Part shown: one piece after another, positions 340 to 61,146 of the stretch
How the letters are laid out: each line of letters opens with the position of its first letter
Numbering within the stretch: the stretch's first letter is position 1
Assembly (NCBI RefSeq): GCF_009914755.1
Contig: NC_060931.1
Source of the DNA: the human T2T-CHM13v2.0 reference genome, Homo sapiens
Strand: one strand, 5' to 3'
DNA length: 64,000 nucleotides
Position numbers and translations under genes: made by a program
The notes under the pieces: generated by a model
What the model saw: the letters and a program-made list of their open reading frames with translations, nothing else
Told to the model about the DNA's origin: nothing
The model's database searches: none

Positions 340-1240
340 GCCAGCATGAAAATTTTCCAAACTCTTAAGCTCTGCTTCCCTTTTAAATATAAGGTCCAGT
401 TTCAGGTCATTTCTTTGCTCGCACATATAAGCATTGGCTGTTCGAATCAACTAGGCCACTTCTGGAACACTTTGCTGCTTAGAAATTTCTACTGCTAGAT
501 ACCCTAGGTCATCACTCTTAAGTTGAAACTTCCACAGAGCCTTAGGGCCTGGACAAAATGCAGCCAAGCTCTTTACTAAAGCATAACATGGGTGACTTTA
601 CTCCAGTTCCTAATAACTTCATTTCCATCTGAGACCTCATCAGCCTGGACTTCAATATCTCTATCAGCATTTTGGTCACAACCATTTAGCCAGTCTACAA
701 GTTGCAAACTTTTCTTCATCTTCCTGTCTTCTTCTGAAACTTCGAAATTCTTCCAATCTCTGCCCATTACCCAGTTCCAATGCTGGATCCACATTTTTAG
801 GTATCTTTATAGCAATGCCCCTCTCCTCAGTACTTATTTTGTATTATGCCATTCTTGCATTGCTATAAAAAAGTACCTGAGGCTGGCTAATTTATAGAGA
901 AAAAAAGGTTTAATTGGCTCATGATTCTGCAGGCTTTACATGAAGCATGGTGCTGGCACCCGCTTCTGGGGAGCCCTCAGGGAGCTTACACCATGGTGAA
1001 AGGTGAAGGGGGAGCCAATGTGTCACATGGTCAGAGCAGGAGCAAGAGAGAGACAGAGGTATCACACTCTTTTAAACAACCAGATCTCACATGAACTACC
1101 AGAGCAAGAACTCACTCTTCACCAAGTGGATAGGGCTAAGCCATTCATGAGGGAGCCACCTCCTACCAGGCTGCCCTTCCAACATTGGGGGTTACATTTC
1201 AACATGAGATTTGGAGGGGACAAACATCCAAACCATAACA
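340..1240 (-). mobile_element. MST internal fragment plus MST LTR (MaLR)
   Basis: Internal part gives the ORF-like text DQNADRDIEVQADEVSDGNE, typical of MaLR-int. The LTR runs from tgtattatgccattcttgcattgctataa (~840) to accataaca (~1240). Confidence 0.75.
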
Positions 1241-4043
1241 GAGATGAATGCCAAGACAGCTGGACTAGGTGGGGCAAGCCAGGAACAGGCTTCAGAAACA
1301 GCCTAGGCAGGAGGCAGGAAGACAAGACGGCAGGAAGCAGTGCAGAACAAAGCAGGCTCCTCATCATTCAACCTCCCCTGAGTGCAGCAAAGGGGCCTTA
1401 TTGTCAGCCCCTAACTGATCATTGATAACTAAAGTTACAACAACTCATACCTGTAAGGGCCATGGTGAGTTAGAGCTGGCAAGAGCCCTAATGATACACA
1501 GTCTTCTCTTGAAAGAGGAGAAGACTGAGGCCCAGAGAAGTGAGTAAATTTCCCAACAAGCAGAGAGTTGAGACTGGAATCTGGCTTCCCACCCCAGCCC
1601 AGTGCTCTTGGAACCAGAGGACGGTCCTCACCCAGTCAGCTAAGGGGAGCCTTGGCATGCTGGCCACCACCAGCCCAGTGATGCTAGGAAAGTTGCAGTG
1701 CTTATCTATCTGTGTGTGCCTCCCTTTGTTCAAATGTAATGTAGAAACAATAATACTGCCTTTCAGGATCTTCCTGTAAGAATTAAATTACTTAATATTT
1801 TAAAACATAGTGGTGTCATATTTGAGCTCACATTACCCTAAGATTCACCCTACCATCAGGCTGCTACAAGGAATTCAAAGATTCCTGGGTAGAGACCTGA
1901 TGAAAATGGGCACCGGTTAAAATAAAAAAAGGAGGGATAATTTGGGGGTGGGGGTGTCATTTACGTTGTCCCCAGGTCCTACCCCTGGAATTGCGCAAGG
2001 GCCACAATAGTCAGAAATGGATTATTTCATGGGATGTTCAATGAAACCTCAGTTAAACCGTGAGACCATCTTGTCTTATTGCTTAAAACCACTGAAAGCT
2101 GAAAGGGTTAGATTTATGGAGCTTCTGGGTAACATCCTCTGAGGACCCTAGGAATGGTGAATGAGGGAGGAAGGGAGTAGGGAGAGAATAATTTAAACAG
2201 AGCAGAGCCAGGCAAACTCTCCCTGCATGAGAAACTAACAGGAAAACCCAGGTCCCATGTGAGTACCAAGTTAAAGGACCCCAGCAGGCCATGTTGGTTC
2301 CCTTTCCCCTTTCTGGACTTACTGCTCCATCAAGGCTAAGCAGACCATTGGCTCTCCCTTTTCCTCTGTTCTCCTGGCTCCCACTACCTCTGCTTTTTTC
2401 AACAACAGATGTATTTTTCAAGGATCCTGCTCCTGGGAAGTACTTCTTCTAGCACTTCACTTATCTCACCTGATGCACTATACCTAATTATCAGCTTAAT
2501 TGCCTTCTTCCACCACTGACCAGTTACAATCAGGTATATTCTATCTTCGTCCCTGTGGCATTATCGCGCCAAAACAATAGTAGACACTGCATATTTATTG
2601 GATGAATGAGTTAATGAATGAATGCTTGGAACTCTTCCTGACAATCAAATTCAGGCCCTAGTCCCACACATAAGTAATTAAAAGTCGAAGTGACCATACT
2701 GAGCAAGTTCCTGAGCTCTTGCTAGTAAAAACAAGGCCCTTGGAGCAACATTGGTTTTTCTCAGAAGCTTATTAAAAATACAGACTCTCAGGCTGAATCT
2801 AAACTTGCATTTTAACAAGATCCCCAGATGATTCCCACACATTGAAGGTTAAGAAGCCCTGTTCTAAGGGGTAACGTCTTCCAGAGAGCTTAGCTGCTTC
2901 CAGTGCCCTACCTCAAGGGTCTGATTCAAGGAATGAGATGGAAGTCTGCAAATGCAGGCAGATCACTAAGGTTTCTGGCCCTGGGGCTCCATCATCAGTC
3001 TACCCTCCACTCCAGATTGGCCTAGAGATCCCCAAGTGTGAGGCAAGGAATCAAGCGCTCCCTGAGAGGGTGTCAAGCCCCAGCGCCTCCTGGAGGCCTC
3101 CAGCTGTGCAGAATCATGCTCTTGGCAGCACCTGGCTGCTATTGTTAGGAGAGAATGAGGAGCTGCGAGGACAGTGGCACTGTACATGCTGACTAAAAGG
3201 CGGGGCTCCTATCTGCATTTGGAATGACATACCCGATTCTATTTGCGAAGGAAACACAATGGCCCTTTACTACAGGATTTGAATGGCAGGAACCAGCTAA
3301 ATGGACTAGGAAATGATTAAGAGACAAAAGTCAAGGCATTGTGTGTGCACCATGCTTAGCCCAGTCCTGAAAGCCCTATTATAATGGCCACTGTTCCTGT
3401 AGCCCCTCCTGAGCCCCACCACCCTCCTCAGAAACACTGTGGCTCCTTGGACACACTGCAAGGCCTATTTGTCTCTCCTCAAGGAAAAGGGTGGAAAGCT
3501 ACAGCAAACTTTGCCAGGGACTGGGAGGGATGGTGAGGCAGGGAGAGATGAAGGGGCAAAAGACAGGTGGGACAGGAGGTGACAGCCATAGACCACAAGC
3601 GGATCAGGGAAGGATGCAGACGGCAGAATTTGCAAATGTTGTACTGCAGCTTGGAAGAGAGGAGAGAAAGAAGGGGGCAGGGAAATATCCACTGCTGTCC
3701 CACATCATGGGGCAGGATGTCAGGAAGCCCAAGTTCAAAACCCTTGCCCCACATACTGGCTATGTGACTAAGGCATTTTGCTTGTGCTTTCTGGATCTCC
3801 TTTTCCTGGTCTGCAACATGCAGATGCTGATATTAGCCGTATGTGGTGATATGCCAATGAAATTAACTGAAATGAAGCATAGGAAAGTGCTTAGCACAGT
3901 TCTTGACACATAAACTGTCAATTCTAGATCAGAAAGAACAAGAAATTGCTTCCTTTGCCTGTCAACTAGTACATACCGCACCACCCCAGTCCTGCCCATG
4001 TCACCCCCTGAGAAAGGCTTAAGGCATGATTCATCTCAACATA

Positions 4044-10423: not shown

Positions 10424-10462
10424 AAAGTATCCCTGGAGGTGTTACGTCTCATGTATTCTTAA

Positions 10463-11344
10463 TTTTTTTTTAATTATACTTTAAGTTGTAGGGTACATGC
10501 GCACAACGTGCAGGGTAGTTACATATGTATACATGTGCCATGTTGGTGTGCTGCACCCAGTAACTCATCATTTAACATTAGGTATATCTCCCTCCCCCCT
10601 CCCCCCACCCCACAACAGTTCCCAGAGTGTGATGTTCCCCTTCCTGTGTCCATGTGTTCTCATTGTTCAATTCCCACCTATGAGTGAGAACATGCGGTGT
10701 TTGGTTTTTTGTCCTTGCGATAGTTTGCTGAGAATGATGGTTTCCAGCTTCATCCATGTCCCTACAAAGGACACGAACTCATCCTTTTTTATGGCTGCAT
10801 AGTATTCCATGGTGTATATGTGCCACATTTTCTTAATCCAGTCTATCATTGTTGGACATTTGGCTTGGTTCCAAGTCTTTGCTATTGTGAATAGTGCCAC
10901 AATAAACATACGTGTGCATGGGTCTTTAGAGCAGCATGATTTATAGTCCTTTGGGTATATACCCAGTAATGGGATGGCTGGGTCAAATGGTATTTCTAGT
11001 TCTAGATCCCTGAGGAATCGCCACACTGACTTCCACAATGGTTGAACTAGTTGACAGTCCCACCAACAGTGTAAAAGTGTTCCTATTTCTCCACATCCTC
11101 TCCAGCACCTGTTGTTTCCTGACTTTTTAATGATTGCCATTCTAACTGGTGTGAGATGGTATCTCATTGTGGTTTTGATTTGCATTTGTCTGATGGCCAG
11201 TGATGATGAGCATTTTTTCATGTGTCTTTTGGCTGCATAAATGTCTTCTTTTGAGAAGTCTCTATTCATATCCTTCGCCCACTTTTTGATGGGATTGTTT
11301 GTTTTTTTCTTGTAAATTTGTTTGAGTTCACTATAGATTCTGAA
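10463..11344 (-). mobile_element. 5'-truncated L1PA (ORF2 C-terminus + 3'UTR)
   Basis: ORF 10667..11269 is the L1 ORF2 C-terminal Cys-rich region ([18 protein letters not shown]); 17-bp TSD GTCTCATGTATTCTTAA at 10446-10462 and 11345-11361. Confidence 0.95.
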
Positions 11345-40813: not shown

Positions 40814-41440
40814 GTAAAAAAAAAAAAGTCATATTATTTAACTGTTTTTCCCACAATTTTATATACCACTGCAAACTCCAAACTCTTAAACCCTAGTTAC
40901 TTCCACTGATCTCACTCTTTCTAAGCAATGTTGCTTTTAGAATATCTAAAACAAAGGAGATATCAATCCTGTTTAAATGGTTTGCATGGGAAATGTTATA
41001 CATATGTTCTTAGTAATTTATTCTGCCACTTTTTATAGATTTTAATTTTTTCAAAATTTATTCACAGTCATAAATGCCACATTTAAAATAATTTTACTGT
41101 GCTTATTTTTTTAATGAATTTTTAATATTAGTCCTTCACATTCCTTCTTGAAATAAACTCATGGAATGTGGTATTTTATTCATGTGTGGAAAGGGAGACT
41201 TCGTTGTCATCTGAGTATCAAATGATTGAATACTAAATCATCTTCCAGAACTCTTTGTTACTATAAAGCTTTCCTAGTCCATTTCATACTTCTTTTCTAG
41301 ATTCAGGAAAGATTTCTAAGATTTTTCTTTAAAGAAAGAAATCTTTAATGATGAGATGATGAAGCTCTATTTTCCAAGGAAAATAGTTTACCCAGGCCTG
41401 GCTGCCAACTGCTACTTTATCAGCCATCTGACTTCATTCT

Positions 41441-43611
<2,171 letters not shown>

Positions 43612-50097: not shown

Positions 50098-50161
50098 CAA
50101 TTAATGCAACTTGCCTGTGAATTAAGCATATTTGTTCTTTATAATTTTTTTAAATCAATAT

Positions 50162-50620
50162 TGTCAGGCCTCTGAGCCCAAGCTAAGCCATCACATCCCC
50201 TGTGACCTGCACTTATACATCCAGATGGCCTGAAGTAACTGAAGAATCACAAAAGAAGTGATACTTAAATGGCCTGTTCCTGCCTTAACTGATGACATTC
50301 CACCACAAAAGAAGTGAAAATGGCCGGTCCTTGCCTTAACTGATGACATTACCTTGTGAAATTCCTTCTCCTGGCTCATCCTGGCTCAAAAAGCTCCCCT
50401 ACTGAGCACCTTGTGACCCCTCACTCCGGCCTGCCAGAGAACAACCCCCCTTTGACTGTAATTTTCCTTTACCTACCAAAATCTTAGAAAATGGCCCCAC
50501 CCCATCTCCCTTTGCTGACTCTCTTTTCAGACTCAGCCCACCTGCACCCAGGTGAAATAAACAGCCTTGTTGCTCACACAAAGCCTGTTTGGTGGTCTCT
50601 TCACACAGATGCGAGTAAAA
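50162..50620 (+). promoter_or_regulatory. 5' LTR7 of provirus #1 (459 bp)
   Basis: tgtcaggcctctgagcccaagc...gcgagtaaaa; two ACAAAAGA motifs (50249, 50305); TATA position reads TAGAAAA; AATAAA at 50556-50561. Confidence 0.9.
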
Positions 50621-50622
50621 TT

Positions 50623-50640
50623 TGGTGCCATGACTCGGAT
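50623..50640 (+). other. tRNA-His primer binding site
   Basis: TGGTGCCATGACTCGGAT, one mismatch to the canonical TGGTGCCGTGACTCGGAT. Confidence 0.9.
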
Positions 50641-53600
50641 TGGGGGACCTCCCTTAGGAGATCAATCCCCTATCCTCCTGCTCTTTGCTCCATGAGAAAG
50701 ATCGACCTACGACCTCAGGTCCTCAGACTGACCAGCCCAAGGAACATTTCACCAATTTTAAATCGGGTAAGCGGCCTCTCTTTACTCTCTTCTCCAACCT
50801 CTCTCACTATCCCTCAACCTCTTTCTCCTTTCAATCTTGGCACCACACTTAAATCTCTCCCTTCTCTTAATTTCAGTTCCTTTCCTTTTCTGGTAGAGAC
50901 AAAGGTGAAGCGTTTTATCTGTGAACCCAAAACTCCGGCGCCGGTCACAGAATCAGGAAGAGTCTTCCCTTGGTGTTTAACCACATGGGGATGCCTACAT
51001 GATTATTCACCCATGTTTCAGAGGTGTCTGACCACGGAGGGATGCCTGTCTTGGTCCTTCACCCTTAGCGGCAAGTACCACTTTTTGGGGGGCAAGAACC
51101 CCCCGACCCCTTCCCTCCATGTCTCTACCTCTTCTCCACTTTCCTGGGGGCAAGCATCCCCCCACCCCTTCTCTCTGTGTCTCTACCCTCTATTTTCTCT
51201 GGACTTGCCTCCTTCACTATAGGTAAACTTCCACCCTCCATTCTCCTTCTCCCTTAGCCTGTGTTCTCAAAGACTTAATACCTCTTCAACTCACATGTGA
51301 CCTAAAACCTAAATGCCTTATTTTCTTCTGCAATGCCACTTGACCCCAATACAAACTCGACAGTGGTTCCAAATAGCCAGAAAATGGCACTTTCGATTTT
51401 TCCATCCTACAAGATCTAAATAATCCTTGTCGTAAAATGGGCAAACAGTCTGAGATGCCTGACGTCCAGGCATTCTTTTACACATCGGTCCCTCCCTAGT
51501 CTCTGTTCCCAATGCAACTTGTCCCAAATCTTCCTTCTTTCCCTCCCACCTGTCCCCTCAGTCCCAACCCCAAGCGTCGCTGAGTCTTTCTTCTTTCCAA
51601 TCTTCCTTTTCTATAGACCCATCTGACCTCTCCCCTCCTCCCCAGGCTGCTCCTCGCCAGGCTGAGCTAGGTCCCAATTCTTCCTCAGCCTCCGCTCCCC
51701 TACCCTATAATCCTTTTATCACCTCCCCTCCTCACACCCGGTCGGGCTTACAGTTTCCTTCCGCAACAAGCCCTCCCGCACCTGCCCAGCAATTTCCTCT
51801 TAAAAAGGTGGCTGGAGCTAAAGGCATAGTCAAGGTTAATGCTCCTTCTTCTTTATCCCAAATCAGAGAGCGTTAGGCTCTTTTTCACCAAATAAAAAAC
51901 CCAGCCCAGTTCATGGCTGCTTGGCAGCAACCCTGAGACGCTTTACAGCCCTAGACCCTAAAAGGTCAAAAGGCTGTCTTATTCTCAATATACATTTTAT
52001 TACCCAATTTGCTCCCGACATTAAATAAAACTCCAAAAATTAAATTCCAGCCCTCAAACCCCATAACAGGACTTAACTAACCTCGCCTTCAAGGTGTACA
52101 ATAATAAAGTGGAGGCAGCCAAGTAGCAATGTATTTCTGAGTTGCAATTCCTTGCCTCCACTGTGAGACAAATCCCAGCCATATCTCCAGCACACAAGAA
52201 CTTCCAAATGCCTGGACCACAGCTGCCAGGGGTTCCTCCAGAATCTCCTCCCCAAGCCCTGGAAATCTGGCCACTGGGCCAAGGAATGCCCATGGCCCAG
52301 GATTCTTCCTAAGCTGTGTCCCATCTGTTCAGGACCCCACTGAAAATCGGACTGTTCAACTCACCTGGCAGCCACTTCCAGAGCCCCTGGAACTCTGGCC
52401 CAAGGCTCTCTGACACCTTCCCAGACCTTCTTGGCTTAGCAGCTGAAGACTGACACTGCCCGATCGCCTCAGAAGCCTATAGGACCTTCACAGATGCTCT
52501 GGGTAACCCTCACAGTGGAGGGTAAGTCTGTCCCCTTCTTAATCAATACAGAGGCTACCCACTGCACATTACCTTTTTTTCAAGGGCCTATTTCCCTTAC
52601 CTCCATAACTGTTGTGGGTATTGACAGCCAGGCTTCTAAACCTCTTAAAATTCCCCAACTCTGGTGCCAACTTAGACAATATGCTTTTAAGCACTCCTTT
52701 TTAGTTTTCCCCACCTGCCCAGTTCCCTTGTTAGGCCAAGACACTTTAACTAAATTATCTTCTTCCCTGACTATTCCTGGGCTACAGCCACACCTCATTG
52801 CTGCCTTTTCCCCCAGTTCAAAGCCTCCTTCACATCCTCCCCTTATATCTCCCCACCTTAACCCACAAGTATAGGACACCTCTACTCCCTCCTTAGCGAC
52901 CGATCATGCACCCCTTACCATCCCATTAAAACCTAATCACCCTTACCCCGCTCAATGCCAATATCCCATCCCACAGCATGCTTTAAAAGGATTAAAGTCT
53001 GTTATCACTCACCTGCTACAGCATGGCCTTTTAAAGCCTATAAACTCCCCTTACGATTCCCCCATTTTACCTGTCCTAAAACCAGACAAGGCTTACAGGT
53101 TAGTTCAGGATCTGCACCTTATCAACCAAATTGTTTTGCCTATCCACACCGTGGTGCCCAACACATATACTCTCTGCCTCAATACCTCCCTCCACAACCC
53201 ATTATTCTGTTCTGGATCTCAAACATGCTTTCTTTACTATTCGTTTGCACCCTTCATCCCAGCCTCTCTTCGCTTTCACTTGGACTGACCCTGACACCCA
53301 TCAGGTTCAGCAAATTACCTGGGCTATACTGCCACAAGGCCTCACAGACAGCCCCTATTACTTCAGTCAAGCCCAAATTTCTTCCTCATCAGTTACCTAT
53401 CTTGGCTTCTCATAAAAACACATGTGCCCTCCCTGCCGATCATGTCCACCTGATCTCTTAAAACCCAGCACTTTCTACAAAACAACAATTCCTTTCCTTC
53501 CTAGGCATGGTTGGATACTTTCAACTTTAGATGCCTGGTTTTGCCATTCTAAAACCATTTTATAAACTCACAAAAGGAAACCTAGCTGACCCCATAGATC

Positions 53601-55474
53601 CTAAATCCTTTCCCCACTCCTTTCCGTTCCTTGAAGACAGCTTTAGAGACTGCCCCCACTCTAGCTCTCCCTGACTCATCCCAACCCTTTTCATTACACA
53701 CTGCTGAAGTGCAGGGCTGTGCAGTCAGAATTCTTACACAAGGACCAGGATGGCATCCTGTAGCCTTTTTGTCCAAACAACTTGACCTTATTGTTTTAAG
53801 CTGGCCATTATGTCTCCATGCAGTGGCTGCTGCCGCTCTAATACTTTTAAAGGCCCTTAAAATCACAAACTATGCTCAACTCACTCTCTACAGCTCTCAT
53901 AATTTCCAAAATCTATTTTCTTCCTCACACCTGACGCATATACTTTCTGCTCCCTGGCTCCTTCAGCTGTACTCACTCTTTGCTGTGTCTCCCACAATTA
54001 CCATTGTTCCTGGCCCGGACTTCAATCCAGCCTCCCACATTATTCCTGATACCACACCTGACCCTCATGACTGCATCTCTCTGATCCACCTGACGTTCAC
54101 CCCATTTCCCCACATTTCCTTCTTCCCTGTTTCTCACCCTGATCACACTTGGTTTATTGATGGCAGTTCCACCAGGCCTAATTGCCACACACCAGCAAAG
54201 GCAGGCTATGCTGTAGCACAAGCCACTAGCCCGCCTCTTAAAACCTCTCATTTCCTTTCCATTGTAGAAAACTGTCCTCAAGGAAATAACTTCTCAGTGT
54301 TCCATCTGCTATTCTACTACTCCTCAAGGATTATTCAGGCCCCCTCCCTTCCCTACACATCAAGCTTAAGGATTTGCCCCCACCCAGGACTGGCAAATTA
54401 GCTTTACTCAACATGCCCTGAGTCACAAAAACTAAAATACCTCTTAGTCTAAGTAGACACTTTCACTAGATAGGTAGAGGCCTTTCCTACAGGGTCTGAG
54501 AAGGCCACCACAGACATTTCTTCCCTTCTGTCAGACATAATTCCTCAGTTTAGCCTTCCCACCTCTATACAGTCTGATAACAGACCAGCCTTTATTAGTC
54601 AAATCAGCCAAGCAGTTTTTCAGACTCTTAGTATTCAGTGAAACCTTTATATCCCTTACAGTCCTCAGTCTTCAGGAAAAGTAGAACAGACTAAAGGTCT
54701 TTTAAAAACACACCTTACCAAGCTCAGCCACCAACTTAAAAAGGAATAGACAATACTTTTACCACTTTCCCTTCTCAGAATTCAGGCCTGTCCTCAGAAT
54801 GCTACAAAGTACAGCCCATTTGAGCTCCCATATAGATGCTCCTTTTTATTAGGCCCCAGTATCATTCCAGACACCAGACCAACTTGGACTGTGCCCCAAA
54901 AAACTTGTCATCCCTACTGTCTTCTGTCTAGTCATACTCCTATTCACTGTTCTCAGCTACTCATACGTGCCCTGCTCTTGTTTACACTGCCAGTTTACAC
55001 TGTTTCTCCAAGCCATCACAGCTGATATCTCCTGGTGCTAGCCCCAAACCGCCACTCTTAACTCTTATAGTAAATAAATAATCTTTGCAGGCAAGGCTAT
55101 GCTGAACCTCCTTAGGCACTCTCTAATTAGATGTCCTAGGTCCTCCCAATTCTTAGTCCTTTAATACCTGTTTTTCTCCTTGTCTTATTCCATTTAGTTT
55201 TTCAATTCATACAAAACTGTATCCAGGTCATCACCAATAATTCTAAATGACAAATGTTTCTTCTAACAACCCCACAATATCACCCCTTACCACAAAATCT
55301 TCCTTCAGCTTAATCTCTCCCACTCTAGGTTCCCACGCCACCCCTAATCCCGCTCAAAGAAGCCCTGAGAAACATCGCCCATTATCTCTCCATACCACCC
55401 CCAAAAATTTTTGCCGTCCCAACACTTTACCACTATTTCATTTTATTTTTCTTATTAATATAAGAAGACAGGAA

Positions 55475-55875
55475 TGTCAGGTCTCTGAGCCCAAGCTAAG
55501 CCATCGTATCCCCTGTGACCTGCATGTACACATCCAGATGGTGGGTTCCTGCCTTAACTGATGACATTCCACCACAAAAGAAGTGAAAATGGCCTGTTCC
55601 TGCCTTAACTGATGACATCGTCTTGTGAAATTCCTTCTCCTGGCTCATCCTGGCTCAAAAGCTCCCCAACTGAGTACCTTGTGACCCCCACTCCTGCCCA
55701 CCGGAGAAAAACCCCCCTTTTTCCTTTACCTACCCCAATCCTACAGAAGGGCCCCACCCCATCTCCCTTCGCTGACTCTCTTTTCGGACTCAGCCCGCCT
55801 GCACCCAGGTGATTAAAAGCTTTATTGCTCACACAAAGCCTGTTTGTTGGTCTCTTCACATGGACGCGCATGAAA
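55475..55875 (+). promoter_or_regulatory. 3' LTR7 of provirus #1 (401 bp, different subtype from its 5' LTR)
   Basis: tgtcaggtctctgag...gcgcatgaaa; polyA signal ATTAAA at 55812-55817. Confidence 0.9.
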
Positions 55876-56015
55876 GCTACATGACAGGATTGTTTAAAAA
55901 CTAAAGTAATTTAAGGGGAAAAAAGGAAATGAGATCAGGAATGTAAGAAGTGCCCTGCTTTCTCTGCAGTTATATAATGCATACTGATTTTTAACATGTA
56001 CATTCATTTTTCTAG

Positions 56016-56172
56016 GCCTGGTTGCAGTATGCCTGAAATTTGGGATGTAGAAGATCCTGCCAATGCTGGGAAAACTCCCTTATGTAACCTCTTGGTGAAG
56101 GATTCCAAACCTCACTTCACCACTGTATTCCAGAACAGTGTTTACAAAGTCCTAGAAGTTGTAAAAGAATGA
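56016..56172 (+). pseudogene. DPY19L1-like terminal exon I, coding part (open, TGA at 56170-56172)
   Basis: ttttctag|G CCT GGT TGC...; PGCSMPEIWDVEDPANAGKTPLCNLLVKDSKPHFTTVFQNSVYKVLEVVKE*. Confidence 0.93.
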
Positions 56173-56343
56173 CTGCTACATGACCTGCTGCCTACGGAGA
56201 ACTACATCTCTAATGGTTTTAATGTTTTGCTAAGTCATGTGTTGTTCATATCCCAAAAACTTTTATAGGTAACTGTTTTCAAATAGAAAATGTTTTATTT
56301 GGTCAATTTGAATGTCATTCTAATTATAAAAATGACTCATACC

Positions 56344-56784
56344 TTTCATGCGCGTCCGTGTGAAGAGACCACCAAACAGGCTTTGTGTGAGCAACATGGC
56401 TGTTTATTTCACCTGGGTGCAGGTGGGCTGAGTCCGAAAAGACAGTCAGCATAGGGAGATAAGGGTGGGGCCATTTTATAGGATTTGGGAAGGTAATGGA
56501 AAATTACAATCAAAGGGGGTTGTTCTCTGGTGGGCAGGGGTGGATCTCACAAAGTACATTCTCAAGTGTGGGGAGAATTACAAAGAACCTTCTTAAGGGT
56601 GGGGGAGATTACAAAGTACATTGATCAGTTAGGGTGGGGCAGGAACAAATCACAATGGTGGAATGTCATCAGTTAAGGCTGTTTTTACTTCTTTTGTGGA
56701 TCTTCAGTTACTTTAGGCCATCTGAATGTATACGTGCAAGTCACAGGGGATGCGATGGCCTGGCCTGGGCTCAGAGGCCTGACA
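56344..56784 (-). promoter_or_regulatory. 3' LTR of provirus #2
   Basis: Reverse complement of tgtcaggcctctgagcccaggccaggcc...gcatgaaa; AATAAA on - strand at 56403-56408. Confidence 0.92.
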
Positions 56785-59700
56785 TTCCTGCCTTCTTATA
56801 TTAATAAGACAAATAAAACAAAATAGTGTTGAAGTGTTGGGGCGGCGAAAATTTTTGGGGGGTGGTATGGAGAGAGAATGGGTGATGTTTCTCAGGGCTG
56901 CTTCAAGCGGGATTAGGGGTGGCGTGGGAACCTAGAGTGGGAGAGATTAAGCTGAAGGGAGGTCTTGTGGTAAGGGGTGATATTGTGGGGATGTTAGAAG
57001 AAACATTTGTCGTATAGAATGATTGGTGATGGCCTGGATACGGTTTTGGATGAATTGAGAGAGCTTAATGTGTAGGGAAGGGAGGGGGCCTGAATAATCC
57101 CTGAGGAGTAGTAGAATAGCAGATGGAACACTGAGAAGTTATTTCCTTGAGGATAGATTTCCACGATGGAAAGGAAATGAGAGGTTCTAAGAGGTGGGAT
57201 AGTGGCTTGTGCTATAGCATAGCCTGCCTTTGCTGGTGTGTGGCGATTAGGCCTGGTGGAACTGCCATCAATAAATCAAGCGTGATCAGGGTGAGGAACA
57301 GGAAAGAAGGAAATATGGGGAAATGGGGTGAATGTCAGGTGGATCAGAGAGATACAGTCATGGGGGTCAGGTGTGGTATCAGGAATAATGTGGGAGGCCA
57401 GATTGAAGTCCGGGCCAGGAACAATGGTAATTGTGGGACTTAACAAAGAGTGAGTACAGCTGAAGGAGCTGGGGAGCAGAAAGTATATGCGTCAGGTATA
57501 AGGAAGAAAAAGATTTCGGAAGTTATGAGAAATGTAGAGTGAGTTGAGCATAGTTTGTGATTTTTAGGGCCTCTAGAAGTATTAAAGCATCGGCAGCCGC
57601 TGCATGCAGACATGAGGGCTAGGCTAAAACAGTAAGGTCAAGTTGTTTGGACAGAAACGCTGCAGGGTGTGGTCCTGGCTCTTGTGTAAGAATTCTGACC
57701 ATGCTAACCATGCCTAGGAAGGAAAGGAGTTGTTGTTTTGTAAGGGATTGAGGTTTGGGAGATTAATCGGACACGATCAGCAGGGAGAGCATGTGCGTTT
57801 TTATGAGAATTATGCTGAGATAGGTAACAGATGAGGATGAAATTTGGGCTTGACTGAAGTAATGGGGGCTGTCTGTGAAGCCTTGCGGCAGTACAGCCCA
57901 GGTAATTTGCTGAGCCTAATGGGTGTCAGGGTCAGTCTAAGTGAAGGCAAAGAGAGGCTGGGATGAAGGGTGCAAAGAAATAGTAAAGAAAGCATGTTTG
58001 AGATCCAGAACAGAATAATGGGTAATAGAGGGAGGTATTGAGGATAGGAGAATATATGGGTTGGGCACCATGGGGTGGATAGGCAAAACAATTTGGTTGA
58101 TAAGGCGCAGATCCTGAACTAACTTGTAAGCCTTGTCTGGTTTTAGGACAGGTAAAATGGGGGAATGGTAAGGAGAGTTTATAGGTTTTAGAAGCCCATA
58201 CTGTAGCAGGCGAGTGATAACAGGCTTTAATCCTTTTAAAGCATGCTGTGGGATGGGATATTGGCGTTGAGCAGGGTAAGGGTGATTCGATTTTAACGGG
58301 ATGGTAATGGGCATGTGATCGGTTGCCAGGGAAGGAGTAGAGATGTCCCATATTTGTGGGTTAAGGTGGGGGGATATGAGAGGAAGATGCAAAGGAGGCT
58401 TTGGGCTGGGGAGAAGGGTGGCAATGAGATGCAGCTGTAGTCCAGGAATAGTCAGGGAAGCAGATAATTTGGTTAAAATATCTCGGCCTAATAAGGGAAC
58501 TGGGCAGGTGGGGATAACTAAAAAAGAGTGCATAAGAGTGTTGTCCAAGTTGGCACCAGAGTGGGGGAGTTTTCAGGGGTTTTGAAGCTTGGCCGTCAAT
58601 ACCCACAACAGTTATGGAGGCAAGGGAAACAGGCCCTTGAAAAGAAGGTAATGTGGAGTGGGTAGCCTCCGTATTGATTAAGAAGGGGACGGACTTATCT
58701 TCCACTGTGAGAGTTACCCAAAGCTCGGCGTCCGTGATGGTCTACAGGGCTTCTGAGGCGATCGGGCAGCATGAGTCTTCAGCCGCTAAGCCGAGAAGGA
58801 GTCAGTCAGAGAGCCTTGGGCCAGAGTTCCAGGGGCTCCGGGAGTGGCTGCCAGGTGAGTTGAACAGTCCGGTTTCCAGTGGGGTCCCACACAGATGGGA
58901 CACGGCTTAGGAGGAATCCTGGGCTGCAGGCATTCCTTGGCCTGGTGGTCAGATTTCTGGCACTTGTAGCAAGCTCCTGGGGGAGGAGGTTCTGGAGGAA
59001 CGCCTGGCCGCTGCGGTTCAGGCGTTTGGAAGTTCTTGTGTGCTGGAGATGTGGCTGGGATTTGTCTCACAGTGGAGGCAAGGAATTGCAACTTTTTTCT
59101 ATTATTGTACACCTTGAACGCGAGGTTAATTAAATCCTATTGTGGGGTTTGAGGGCCGGAATTTAATTTTTGGAGTTTTATTTAATGTCGGGAGCAGATT
59201 GGGTAATAAAATGTATATTGAGAATAAGATGGCCTTTTGACCTTTTAGTTTCTAGGGCTGTAAAGCATCTCAGGGTTGCTGCTGAACGAGCCATGAACTG
59301 GGCTGGGTTTTTATATTTGATGAAAAAGAGCCTAAACGCTTCTGATTTGGGATAAAGAAAAAGGAGCATGAACCTTGACTATGCCTTTGGCTCCAGCCAC
59401 CTTTTTAAGAGTAAATTGCTGGGCAGGTGGGGGAGGGCTAGTCACAGAACGAAACTGTAAGCCGGACCAGGTGTGAGGAGGGGAGGCGATAAAAAGATTA
59501 CAGGGTGGAGGAGCGGAGGCTGAGGAAGAATTGGGACCTAGCTTGGACTGGCGAGGAGGGGAGAGGTCAGATGGGTCTGTAGAAAAGGAAGATTAGAAAC
59601 ACTTGGTGATGCTTGGGGTTGGGACTGAGGGGACAGGCGGGAGGGAAAGAAGGAAGATTTGGGACGAGTTGCACTGGGCACAGAGACTAGGAAGGGACTG

Positions 59701-60096
59701 ATGTGTAAAAGAATGCCTGGATGTCAGGCACCTCAGACCATTTGACCCTTTTACGACAAGGATTATTTAGATCTTGTAGGATGGAAAAATTCAAAGTGCC
59801 ATTTTCCGGCTATTTGGAACTACTGTCGAGTTTGTATTGGGGCCAAGCGGTGTTGCAGAAGAAAATAAGGTGTTTAGGTTTTAGGTGAGGTGTAAGTTGA
59901 AGAGGTTTTAAGTTCTTGAGCACACAGGCTAAGGGAGAAGAGGGAGGAATGGAGGGTGGAAGGTTGCCTATATTGAAGGAAGCAAACCCAGAGAAAAGAG
60001 AACGTAGAGACATGAAGGGAAGGGGTTTGGGGGTTCTTTCCCCCTAGAAAAGCGGGACTTGCCACTAAGGGTGAAGGAGAAGGGGTTGAGGGGTAC

Positions 60097-60230
60097 TTGC
60101 CCCTGCCCCAGGAAAGCAGAGAAGGGGTAGAGACAAGGAGAGAAGGGGTTGGGGTACTTGGCCATTCCCCAGGAAAGCAGAGAAGGGGTAGAGACAAGGA
60201 GAGAAGGGGTTGGGGTAATTGCCCTTTCCC
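60097..60230. repeat. ~60-bp tandem duplication in the HERV-H leader
   Basis: ccccaggaaagcagagaaggggtagagacaaggagagaaggggttggggta occurs twice. Confidence 0.8.
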
Positions 60231-60680
60231 CAGAAAAGCGGGACTTGCCGCTAAGGGTGAAGGACCAAGGCAGGCGTCCCTGCGTGGTCTGACACCCTTG
60301 AAACGTGGGTGTATAATCAGAGAGGCGTCCCTGCAATGATTAAACACCAAGGGAAGACTGCCTTCCCAGTCCGTGACCGGCGCCGGAGTTTTGGGTCCAC
60401 GGATAAAACGTGTCTCTTTTGTCTCTACCAGAAAATGAAAGGAATTGAAATTAAGAGAAGGGAGAGATTGAAGTGTAGCACCAAGATTGAAAGGAGAAAG
60501 AGGTTGACGGATAGTGAAGGAAGTTGGAGAAGAGAGTAAAGAGAGGCCGCTTACCGGATTTGAAATTGGTGAGATGTTTCTTGGGCTGGTCTGTCTGAGG
60601 ACCTGAGGTCGTAGGTGGATCTTTCTCATGGAGCAAAGAGCAGAAGGAGGGGGGATTGATCTCCCAAGGGAGGTCCCCCG

Positions 60681-60698
60681 ATCCAAGTCACGGCACCA
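60681..60698 (-). other. tRNA-His primer binding site
   Basis: Reverse complement reads TGGTGCCGTGACTTGGAT. Confidence 0.9.
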
Positions 60699-60700
60699 AA

Positions 60701-61141
60701 TTTCATGCGCGTCCATGTGAAGAGACCACCAAACAGGCTTTGTGTGAGCAACATGGCTGTTTATTTCACCTGGGTGCAGGTGGGCTGAGTCCGAAAAGAG
60801 AGTCAGCATAGGGAGATAAGGGTGGGGCCGTTTTATAGGACTTGGGAAGGTAATGGAAAATTACAATCAAAGGGGGTTGTTCTCTGGTGGGCAGGGGTGG
60901 ATCTCACAAAGTACATTCTCAAGTGTGGGGAGAATTACAAAGAACCTTCTTAAGGGTGGGGGAGATTACAAAGTACATTGATCAGTTAGGGTGGGGCAGG
61001 AACAAATCACAATGGTGGAATGTCATCAGTTAAGGCTGTTTTTACTTCTTTTGTGGATCTTCAGTTACTTTAGGCCATATGGATGTATATGTGCAAGTCA
61101 CAGGGGATGCGATGGCCTGGCCTGGGCTCAGAGGCCTGACA
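60701..61141 (-). promoter_or_regulatory. 5' LTR (LTR7Y-like) of provirus #2, intact TATA
   Basis: TATAAAA on - strand at 60831-60837; GGGTGGGG (KLF-type) boxes; splice donor CCG|GTAAGC downstream at 60549-60554. Confidence 0.88.
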
Positions 61142-61146
61142 ATACC

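What the first reader, a model, noticed from the sequence alone, without database searches (positions are those of the whole stretch)
50157..55880. HERV-H provirus #1 looks like a recombinant of two different proviruses
Seen: the flanks are AATAT (50157-50161) and GCTAC (55876-55880), so there is no TSD, while neighbouring provirus #2 has a perfect one. The LTRs are 459 vs 401 bp. The 3' LTR lacks a 44-bp block (50229-50272) and a 10-bp GACTGTAATT block, uses GATTAAAAGCTTTATTG instead of GAAATAAACAGCCTTGTTG around the polyA signal, and has many substitutions. Established: the two LTRs are identical at integration and integrase makes a ~5-bp TSD. Inference: two independent same-orientation HERV-H insertions (in this intron, or in two paralogous duplicons) recombined in the internal region. 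That left one hybrid provirus and deleted the intronic DNA between the two sites. Gene conversion alone would explain the LTR mismatch but not the missing TSD.
Basis: partly seen in the sequence, partly recalled or inferred. Interest (0 to 1): 0.8.

Follow-up and report, generated by a model that had tools for sequence, protein, structure and literature searches.

The report
Hybrid HERV-H provirus from two insertions
This endogenous retrovirus copy in a DPY19L1 pseudogene intron is a fusion of two neighbouring HERV-H insertions that recombined and deleted the 295 bases between them, a well-documented example of a known kind of rearrangement.

Summary

**The provirus.** It spans window 50162-55875, with complete LTR ends of 459 and 401 bp. 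The flanks are AATAT and GCTAC, so there is no target-site duplication. Five of 5 control HERV-H proviruses have perfect 5-bp duplications.

**The empty site.** The paralogous site in the parent DPY19L1 intron (chr7, about 35.07 Mb) carries 295 bp of unique DNA between the two flanks. The provirus replaces exactly that stretch.

**The LTRs.**
- They differ at 42 of 401 aligned sites, plus indels of 44, 10, 2, 1 and 1 bp.
- This is about three times the 3.5% divergence between the two duplicons, which bounds the age of the insertion.
- Each LTR has dozens of full-length relatives at 92-95% identity, and the two sets of relatives do not overlap.
- The 3' LTR sits in a 100/100-supported clade that excludes the 5' LTR. 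An AU test rejects the two as sisters (p 0.006).

**The crossover.** Diagnostic sites switch from the 5'-LTR type (68 of 85) to the 3'-LTR type (48 of 49) between 53524 and 53698, in pol.

**Best reading.** Two same-orientation HERV-H insertions of different LTR7 sublineages, 300 bp apart, recombined homologously.

This is a new member of a known kind and of modest interest. One curiosity remains: three independent HERV-H integrations within about 770 bp of target DNA.

The parts
50157..50161 (+). 5' flank pentamer AATAT: the left copy of the target-site duplication of the upstream parental provirus ('A'); AATGT in the parent gene
   Evidence: the flank matches the parent DPY19L1 intron up to the last base before the LTR, with one substitution
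50162..50620 (+). 5' LTR, 459 bp, of the longer LTR7 sublineage ('A-type'), with complete termini
   Evidence: 39 other genomic copies at 92-95% identity over nearly full length; the 44-bp block is present in 28 of 29 relatives; it lies outside the 100/100 clade that holds the 3' LTR
50621..53524 (+). Internal region derived from provirus A: primer-binding site, degenerate gag and a protease remnant. It also holds three exons of the RefSeq transcript NR_132360.1
   Evidence: the A state at 68 of 85 diagnostic sites; the B-derived state at 2 of 16 sites and the A-derived state at 49 of 64; the best genomic match abuts an A-type LTR. Pfam RVP in 52440-52874
53525..53697 (+). Crossover interval (173 bp with no diagnostic difference), in pol just upstream of the RNase H-like remnant
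   Evidence: the last A-state site is 53524 and the first B-state site is 53698. Maximum chi-square 75.6, reached by 0 of 2000 permutations
53698..55474 (+). Internal region derived from the downstream parental provirus ('B'): an RNase H-like remnant and the 3' internal part up to the polypurine tract
   Evidence: the B state at 48 of 49 sites; 18 of 18 sites with six references per type; 100/100 clade with all six B references; the five best genomic matches (95%) all abut 401-bp-type LTRs. RT_RNaseH_2 in 53598-54401
55475..55875 (+). 3' LTR, 401 bp, of the shorter LTR7 sublineage ('B-type'), with complete termini
   Evidence: 39 other genomic copies at 92-95% identity over the full 401 bp, none shared; 100/100 clade with 20 of 20 B-type LTRs; the 44-bp block is present in 0 of 20 relatives
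55876..55880 (+). 3' flank pentamer GCTAC: the right copy of the target-site duplication of provirus B; GCTAT in the parent (CA versus TG at the next step looks like CpG decay in both copies)
56344..61141 (-). Neighbour, not part of the hybrid: HERV-H provirus #2, a third independent integration 463 bp downstream, in a different LTR7 lineage, with a perfect ATACC duplication
   Evidence: its LTRs are sisters, 100/95

Best explanation
After the 3' part of DPY19L1 was duplicated to this locus, two HERV-H proviruses of different LTR7 sublineages integrated in the same orientation into the copied last intron. Their integration sites were 300 bp apart. Provirus A has 459-bp LTRs and target site AATGT/AATAT. 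Provirus B has 401-bp LTRs and target site GCTAC. Homologous recombination between their internal regions then fused the two. The exchange lies within a 173-bp tract in pol (53525-53697) that has no diagnostic differences between the two types. It could have been an intrachromatid loop-out or an unequal exchange between sister chromatids or homologues. The fusion joined the 5' 3.4 kb of A to the 3' 2.2 kb of B. It deleted A's 3' part, the 295 bp of intron between the sites, and B's 5' part.

Shown: the missing TSD, the 295-bp gap relative to the paralogue, the non-sister LTRs, and the single switch of affinity. Inferred: the order of events and the mode of exchange.
For: **Missing TSD.** The flanks are AATAT and GCTAC. 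Five of 5 controls have perfect 5-bp duplications: provirus #2 and four reference proviruses.

**Empty site.**
- Only one other copy of either flank exists in the genome, the parent DPY19L1 intron.
- There the flanks are separated by 295 bp.
- Those 295 bp have no copy above 80% identity elsewhere (2 weak hits of 74-79%). They are therefore old unique DNA and not a young insertion in the parent.

**LTR divergence.** It is 42 of 401 sites (10.5%) plus five indels. The window and the parent differ at only 752 of 21,696 aligned sites (3.47%). That figure bounds the age of anything absent from the parent.

**LTR lineages.**
- The two LTRs' best 39 genomic relatives each do not overlap.
- In the ML tree of 60 LTRs, the 3' LTR lies in a 100/100 clade with 20 of 20 B-type LTRs and the 5' LTR lies outside it.
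- As controls, provirus #2's LTRs (100/95) and the LTRs of reference provirus A1 (99/84) pair as sisters. Those of reference A2 pair with weaker support (92/72).
- Holding the two LTRs together costs 55.5 lnL units (p-AU 0.006).
- Indel markers are lineage-typical.

**Crossover.**
- Of 134 diagnostic sites, the provirus carries the A state at 68 of 85 sites before the break and the B state at 48 of 49 after it (0 of 2000 permutations reach this).
- Polarised with provirus #2 as outgroup, the B-derived state is present at 2 of 16 sites upstream and 24 of 25 downstream. The A-derived state is present at 49 of 64 upstream and 0 of 11 downstream.
- With six references per type, 2 of 2 sites are A and then 18 of 18 are B.
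- In partition trees the right part joins all six B references (100/100). The left part joins A references with moderate support of 80-88.
Against: - **Polarity.** The direction of the 295-bp difference rests on a paralogue, not on an orthologous empty site in another primate. No unrecombined allele (A + 295 bp + B) has been seen.
- **Choice of references.** The reference LTRs and proviruses were picked by similarity to this provirus's own LTRs, and only 40 candidates per search were scored. The marker counts are therefore partly circular.
- **Weak support on the left of the break.** Within 52775-53610 only 2 near-fixed sites distinguish the types when six references each are used. The left partition tree has no starred branch.
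- **Off-type sites upstream.** Seventeen of 85 upstream sites carry the B state, concentrated around 51300-52300. I attribute this to the two A references being a side branch of the A grade. A short conversion tract is not excluded.
- **Prior odds.** Two integrations 300 bp apart are improbable a priori.
Confidence: 0.82

Rival explanations
1. The same recombination happened between proviruses in two different paralogous copies of the DPY19L1 3' duplicon. Provirus A sat in one copy and provirus B sat 300 bp further along in the other. Non-allelic exchange then left one hybrid duplicon and removed everything between the two copies.
For: One hybrid copy is what such an exchange between direct repeats would leave. 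BLAST identity to the parent looks different on the two sides (92.4% on the 5' flank against 97.3% on the 3' flank).
Against: The difference is due to gaps. By substitutions alone, the 5' flank differs at 55 of 1279 sites (4.3%) and the 3' flank at 12 of 478 (2.5%). The next 2.9 kb downstream is 4.0%, and the overall figure is 3.47%. The duplicon is colinear with the parent from 28841 to 64000. No third copy of either flank exists. This model also needs an extra duplication followed by its loss.
Confidence: 0.06
2. A single provirus had one half, LTR included, overwritten by ectopic gene conversion from an HERV-H copy of another lineage. A separate 295-bp deletion then removed the flank, with its TSD copy, right up to the LTR edge.
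For: Gene conversion among LTRs is reported as extensive in the human genome (PMC4921805, search listing and abstract only). It would explain the LTR mismatch and the switch in the internal region.
Against: This model needs a second, independent deletion whose end coincides to the base with the LTR terminus. Both LTR termini are complete. Both flanks match the parent right up to the LTR.
Confidence: 0.04
3. A single aberrant integration occurred: a non-classical double-strand-break capture, or a non-concerted insertion of the two ends. It deleted 295 bp of target DNA, and the LTRs diverged later.
For: Non-classical HERV-K insertions with target deletions of 6 bp to 10 kb and without TSDs are described (PMC3625200, passages read). 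BLAST extends the 3' flank alignment 7 bp into the LTR end, a small chance similarity.
Against: The described non-classical insertions are truncated at both ends, whereas both LTRs here are complete. Both LTRs of one cDNA are identical at insertion. These two differ three times more than the duplicons do, and each belongs to its own multi-copy lineage. The internal crossover is also left unexplained.
Confidence: 0.03

Closest known systems
Recombinant HERV-K(HML-2) proviruses (Hughes and Coffin 2001, 2005). The papers are recalled: the 2005 paper is not held. Recombinant proviruses are flagged in the tables of PMC3228705 (passages read)
   Same: A provirus whose two flanks carry different target-site sequences and whose LTRs are not sisters, read as a crossover between two integrated proviruses with loss or rearrangement of the host DNA between them.
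   Different: The family here is HERV-H, not HML-2. The two parents lay only 300 bp apart in one intron, so the host DNA lost is tiny. A paralogous empty site and a mapped crossover are available for this case.
Homologous recombination between HERV-H elements causing a recurrent translocation (PMC3292815, search listing and abstract only)
   Same: HERV-H copies act as substrates for non-allelic homologous recombination.
   Different: That case is an interchromosomal, recurrent, pathogenic event. This one is an old local deletion that appears in the reference assembly.
Solo-LTR formation by LTR-LTR recombination within one provirus (PMC6298018, passages read)
   Same: Homologous recombination between direct repeats of retroviral origin, with loss of the DNA between them.
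   Different: Solo-LTR formation keeps the original TSD and leaves a single LTR. Here the exchange took place between the internal regions of two proviruses, leaving a full-length hybrid without a TSD.
Inter-element recombination that founded LTR7 subfamilies (PMC8912925, passages read)
   Same: The result is a mosaic of sequence blocks from different HERV-H lineages.
   Different: Those mosaics are thought to arise by template switching before integration and then to amplify, with both LTRs alike. This mosaic arose after integration, is a single locus, and has unlike LTRs.
Non-classical HERV-K insertions with target-site deletion (PMC3625200, passages read)
   Same: No TSD, and host DNA is missing at the insertion site.
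   Different: Those elements are truncated at both ends and are explained by break repair. This element has two complete LTRs from two lineages.

Membership tests
Recombinant provirus formed by crossover between two integrated proviruses | Complete LTR termini at both junctions with host DNA | tested here: met
   the ends read TGTCAGG... and ...CATGAAA, the same boundaries as in 5 controls
Recombinant provirus formed by crossover between two integrated proviruses | The two flanking target-site sequences differ | tested here: met
   AATAT against GCTAC, 2 of 5 positions alike. Five of 5 controls are perfect
Recombinant provirus formed by crossover between two integrated proviruses | The 5' and 3' LTRs are not sister sequences | tested here: met
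   a 100/100 clade separates them; AU p 0.006
Recombinant provirus formed by crossover between two integrated proviruses | The flanks are not adjacent in the pre-integration sequence | tested here: met
   A 295-bp gap relative to the paralogous DPY19L1 intron. This rests on a paralogue only
Recombinant provirus formed by crossover between two integrated proviruses | Orthologous empty site or unrecombined allele in other primates or human haplotypes | not testable with these tools
   No primate genomes or pangenome are held
Recombinant provirus formed by crossover between two integrated proviruses | A switch of phylogenetic affinity inside the element | tested here: met
   the break lies between 53524 and 53698
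HERV-H (LTR7-group gammaretrovirus-like ERV) | LTR7-type LTRs and a colinear internal region shared with the genome's many copies | tested here: met
   in each search all 40 scored candidates matched, out of 1164-3384 candidates found at first look; protease and RNase H-like remnants. That the primer-binding site is of the tRNA-His type is recalled, not tested
Named LTR7 subfamilies (LTR7B, LTR7C and others) | Best match to a curated subfamily consensus | not tested
   No Dfam or Repbase library is on hand. From recall, the 5' LTR looks like LTR7B and the 3' LTR like a shorter 7B/7C-like form. Only unnamed lineages were shown
Non-classical (break-repair) ERV insertion | Element truncated at its 5' and 3' ends | tested here: not met
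   against the description in PMC3625200

The most novel reading that the evidence does not exclude
The locus records an HERV-H integration hot spot. Three independent integrations from three LTR7 lineages (A, B and provirus #2) hit about 770 bp of target DNA in the pseudogene copy. None hit the parent copy.

My own arithmetic, using the 2,497 LTR7-group insertions counted in PMC8912925 and a uniform model, expects about 5e-4 such triplets in the whole genome.

A second case turned up by accident: a solo LTR with its own TSD lies 399 bp downstream of a provirus, in the same orientation (L048). That is 1 of 36 fetched non-window loci that have 1.5-kb flanks.

The bold reading is that a resident HERV-H, active in the germ line or early embryo, attracts further HERV-H integrations. 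Gammaretroviral integrases are known to be drawn to active enhancers (recalled). On this reading, such clusters then feed provirus-provirus recombination.
Probability: 0.2. Interest if true: 0.6.

Novelty: new member of a known kind. Interest (0 to 1): 0.3.

Why it matters
- **Dating.** This copy would be badly misdated by the usual LTR-LTR divergence method. The 10.5% divergence does not measure its age. Surveys of HERV-H that assume paired LTRs would also misclassify it.
- **Worked example.** It is a clean case with an internal control. The parent gene supplies the empty site, so both original integration sites, the exact host deletion (295 bp) and the crossover interval (173 bp) can all be read off.
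- **Transcription.** The hybrid supplies three exons of the annotated DPY19L1P2 transcript, and RefSeq lists an enhancer that overlaps its 5' LTR. Its mixed origin therefore bears on which LTR lineage drives expression here.
- **Clustering.** Three integrations within about 770 bp is the only feature that might point beyond textbook knowledge.

Tried and rejected
- **Hughes and Coffin 2005.** The paper (PMC1456821) is not held, so it is cited from recall and from a reference list.
- **Literature on this locus.** 'DPY19L1P2' gave 3 papers, none about HERV. PMC1475853 only names the pseudogene. Searches on HERV-H with target site duplication, recombination, paired LTRs or LTR7 subfamilies found no description of this hybrid. 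These searches cover only the held library.
- **Central internal part (52300-53520).** Its best genomic matches were 90-93% identical and did not line up with the A-type LTR hits. Nearest-neighbour searching is therefore uninformative for that stretch.
- **The 295 bp as a young insertion in the parent.** Rejected, because no similar copies exist elsewhere. That it is MIR-like is my reading by eye plus two weak hits, and is not a tested classification.
- **Template switching during reverse transcription as the source of the mosaic.** Rejected on established retrovirology. That process makes both LTRs alike and gives a normal TSD.
- **Assembly error.** Not tested directly. It seems unlikely, because a curated RefSeq transcript is annotated with exons inside the 5' part of the provirus and a last exon beyond it (splice signals read).
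- **Tandem repeats in the provirus.** Only one trivial 15-bp array was found.


Full report
**What is there.** Window 50162-55875 (+ strand) is a 5,714-bp HERV-H provirus.
- The 5' LTR runs 50162-50620 (459 bp) and is followed by the primer-binding site. The 3' LTR runs 55475-55875 (401 bp).
- Both LTRs have complete ends, TGTCAGG... and ...CATGAAA.
- The host pentamers on either side are AATAT and GCTAC, alike at only 2 of 5 positions.
- A global alignment of the two LTRs has 359 matches and 42 mismatches (89.5% identity, K2P 0.114). It has five gaps of 44, 1, 1, 10 and 2 bp, all missing from the 3' LTR.
- No open frame exceeds 267 codons. Pfam finds a retroviral protease remnant in 52440-52874 and RNase H-like remnants in 53598-54401.

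**Controls for the missing duplication.** Provirus #2 lies at 56344-61141 on the minus strand and has 441-bp LTRs that are 98.4% identical. It is flanked by a perfect ATACC/ATACC. Four full-length HERV-H proviruses fetched from the same genome, two of each LTR type, all have perfect 5-bp duplications at the same LTR boundaries. That makes 5 of 5 controls with a TSD, so its absence here is real.

**The empty site.**
- The window is part of a duplicon (28841-64000) that is colinear with the 3' part of DPY19L1 at chr7 35,069,215-35,092,091, on the minus strand.
- Each flank of the provirus has exactly one other copy in the genome, in that parent.
- In the parent the two flanks are not adjacent. 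The 5' flank ends ...AATGT and the 3' flank begins GCTAT..., and 295 bp lie between them.
- The window's flanks match the parent right up to the LTR edges.
- The 295 bp have no close copy anywhere else. One search found only two hits of 74-79% over 65-90 bp. The stretch is therefore old, essentially unique intron DNA and not a young insertion in the parent. To my eye it resembles a MIR, but that is recall, not a test.

**The LTRs cannot come from one integration.**
- The provirus is absent from the parent, so it arrived after the duplication.
- The two duplicons differ at 752 of 21,696 aligned sites (3.47%; segments range from 2.5 to 4.3%). Two LTRs that were identical at integration should differ by no more than about that. 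They differ by 10.5% plus indels.
- Each LTR is a normal member of its own multi-copy lineage. The 459-bp LTR has 39 other genomic matches at 92-95% identity, full length or nearly so. The 401-bp LTR has 39 others at 92-95% over essentially its full 401 bp. The two lists share no locus.
- The 44-bp block is present in 28 of 29 relatives of the 5' LTR and in 0 of 20 relatives of the 3' LTR. The 10-bp block is present in 26 of 29 against 3 of 20. The two poly(A) variants split 20 of 29 against 2 of 20, and 8 of 29 against 17 of 20. These relatives were chosen by similarity, so the counts show that both forms are recurrent types. They are not an unbiased frequency.
- In a maximum-likelihood tree of 60 LTRs, the 3' LTR lies in a 100/100 clade with all 20 B-type LTRs. 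The 5' LTR lies outside it, among the A-type copies.
- As controls in the same tree, the LTR pairs of provirus #2 (100/95) and of reference A1 (99/84) come out as sisters. The pair of reference A2 does so with weaker support (92/72).
- Forcing the two LTRs of provirus #1 together lowers the log-likelihood by 55.5 (p-AU 0.006).

**The crossover.** I aligned the provirus with two A-type references, two B-type references and provirus #2.
- Similarity to the A types is higher from the 5' LTR to about 53.5 kb. Similarity to the B types is higher from about 53.6 kb to the end.
- There are 134 sites where the two A references agree, the two B references agree and the types differ. The provirus carries the A state at 68 of 85 such sites up to 53524, and the B state at 48 of 49 from 53698 on. 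The maximum chi-square is 75.6, reached by 0 of 2000 permutations.
- Polarised with provirus #2 as outgroup, it has the B-derived state at 2 of 16 sites upstream and 24 of 25 downstream. It has the A-derived state at 49 of 64 upstream and 0 of 11 downstream.
- With six references of each type around the break (52775-54475), 20 near-fixed differences remain. The two at 53470 and 53524 are A, and the 18 from 53698 to 54125 are B.
- In partition trees, the right part (53611-54475) joins all six B references with 100/100 support. The left part (52775-53610) joins A references with support of only 80-88.
- In genome-wide searches, the five best matches (95%) of 53700-55474 all abut 401-bp-type LTRs listed. 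The best match (91%) of 50621-52300 abuts a 459-bp-type LTR listed.
- The middle stretch, 52300-53520, was uninformative by this test.
- The 17 off-type sites upstream cluster around 51300-52300. They probably reflect the two A references being a side branch of the A grade. A short conversion tract is not excluded.

**Mechanism.**
- Template switching during reverse transcription makes both LTRs alike and gives a normal TSD, so it cannot produce this structure. This follows from established retrovirology.
- A single integration followed by gene conversion needs an extra deletion that ends exactly at an LTR edge.
- Break-repair insertions, as described for HERV-K, are truncated at both ends (PMC3625200, passages read). 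This element is not truncated.
- The simplest account is two same-orientation integrations 300 bp apart, followed by homologous recombination in pol. That recombination removed A's 3' part, the 295 bp and B's 5' part.
- The variant with two paralogous duplicons has no support. The apparent 92% against 97% identity of the flanks comes from gaps, and the substitution divergences are 4.3% and 2.5%. It cannot be excluded.

**Timing (inferred).**
- The 3.5% duplicon divergence and the LTRs' terminal branches of 0.030 and 0.024 place the A and B insertions not long after the duplication.
- This is compatible with the 9-20 million-year wave that PMC8912925 assigns to LTR7B-like elements (passages read).
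- Provirus #2 is younger, with LTRs 1.6% apart.
- Subfamily names were not assigned by any tool.

**What is known.**
- Recombinant proviruses recognised by discordant TSDs and non-sister LTRs are established for HERV-K(HML-2). Hughes and Coffin 2001 and 2005 are recalled, and recombinant proviruses are flagged in PMC3228705.
- HERV-H copies are known substrates of non-allelic recombination (PMC3292815, search listing and abstract only).
- I found no description of this locus in the held library. Supplements were not opened.
- This is therefore a new, well-documented member of a known kind.

**Limits.**
- There is no orthologous outgroup and no population data.
- The references were chosen by similarity, with 40 scored candidates per search.
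- Subfamily names are untested.

**The open curiosity.** Three independent HERV-H integrations hit about 770 bp of target DNA, and a second close pair was found by accident at L048.

Noticed in passing
window 50157-61146: Three independent HERV-H integrations hit about 770 bp of pre-integration sequence in the pseudogene copy. They are parental provirus A, parental provirus B and provirus #2, they come from three LTR lineages, and two orientations are represented. The parent copy has none. My arithmetic under a uniform model expects about 5e-4 such triplets genome-wide.
   Followed up: partly
L048 (G000:C4:120900902-120904359), LTRs at locus 1501-1958 and 2358-2805: This is another close same-orientation pair. 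A provirus's 3' LTR, preceded by the internal polypurine end, is followed after 399 bp of non-HERV-H DNA by a solo LTR with its own perfect CTATT duplication. This is the kind of configuration proposed as the precursor of the hybrid.
   Followed up: partly
window 50597-50614 and exons 50609-50766, 50877-51070, 52333-52521: RefSeq NR_132360.1 takes three exons from the A-derived half of the provirus. The first acceptor (cacag|ATGCGA) lies inside U5 of the 5' LTR, 12 bp before its end. The donor after 51070 is a GC donor. The last HERV-H exon splices past the crossover, the B-derived half and the 3' LTR to the DPY19L1-derived exon at 56016.
   Followed up: partly
window 56339-56346 and 61142-61146: Provirus #2 sits inside what is the last exon (3' UTR) in the parent. 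The annotated last exon of DPY19L1P2 ends 3 bp into its LTR. The homology to the parent resumes at 61144, after the duplicated ATACC.
   Followed up: partly
window 41437-43610; also 10462-11342: This 2.2-kb stretch is absent from the parent at this place. It is made of two copies, each about 1.1 kb, in opposite orientations (head to head), of a repeat. The same repeat occurs as two direct copies about 3.9 kb apart just downstream of the parent gene (C7:35051839-35056827), at 95-97% identity. It looks like the LTRs of another ERV and was not identified.
   Followed up: no
window 48832/48837 against G000:C7:35074124-35074945: The parent has about 820 bp that the window lacks, 1.3 kb upstream of the provirus. 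The next 200 bp in the window are the most diverged part of the flank (7.3%).
   Followed up: no
window 55880-55883 against L012 1967-1964: Just after the 3' junction the window reads CA where the parent reads TG. This is the pattern expected if an ancestral CpG decayed in both copies. The original target pentamer of provirus B was therefore probably GCTAC, as in the window.
   Followed up: no
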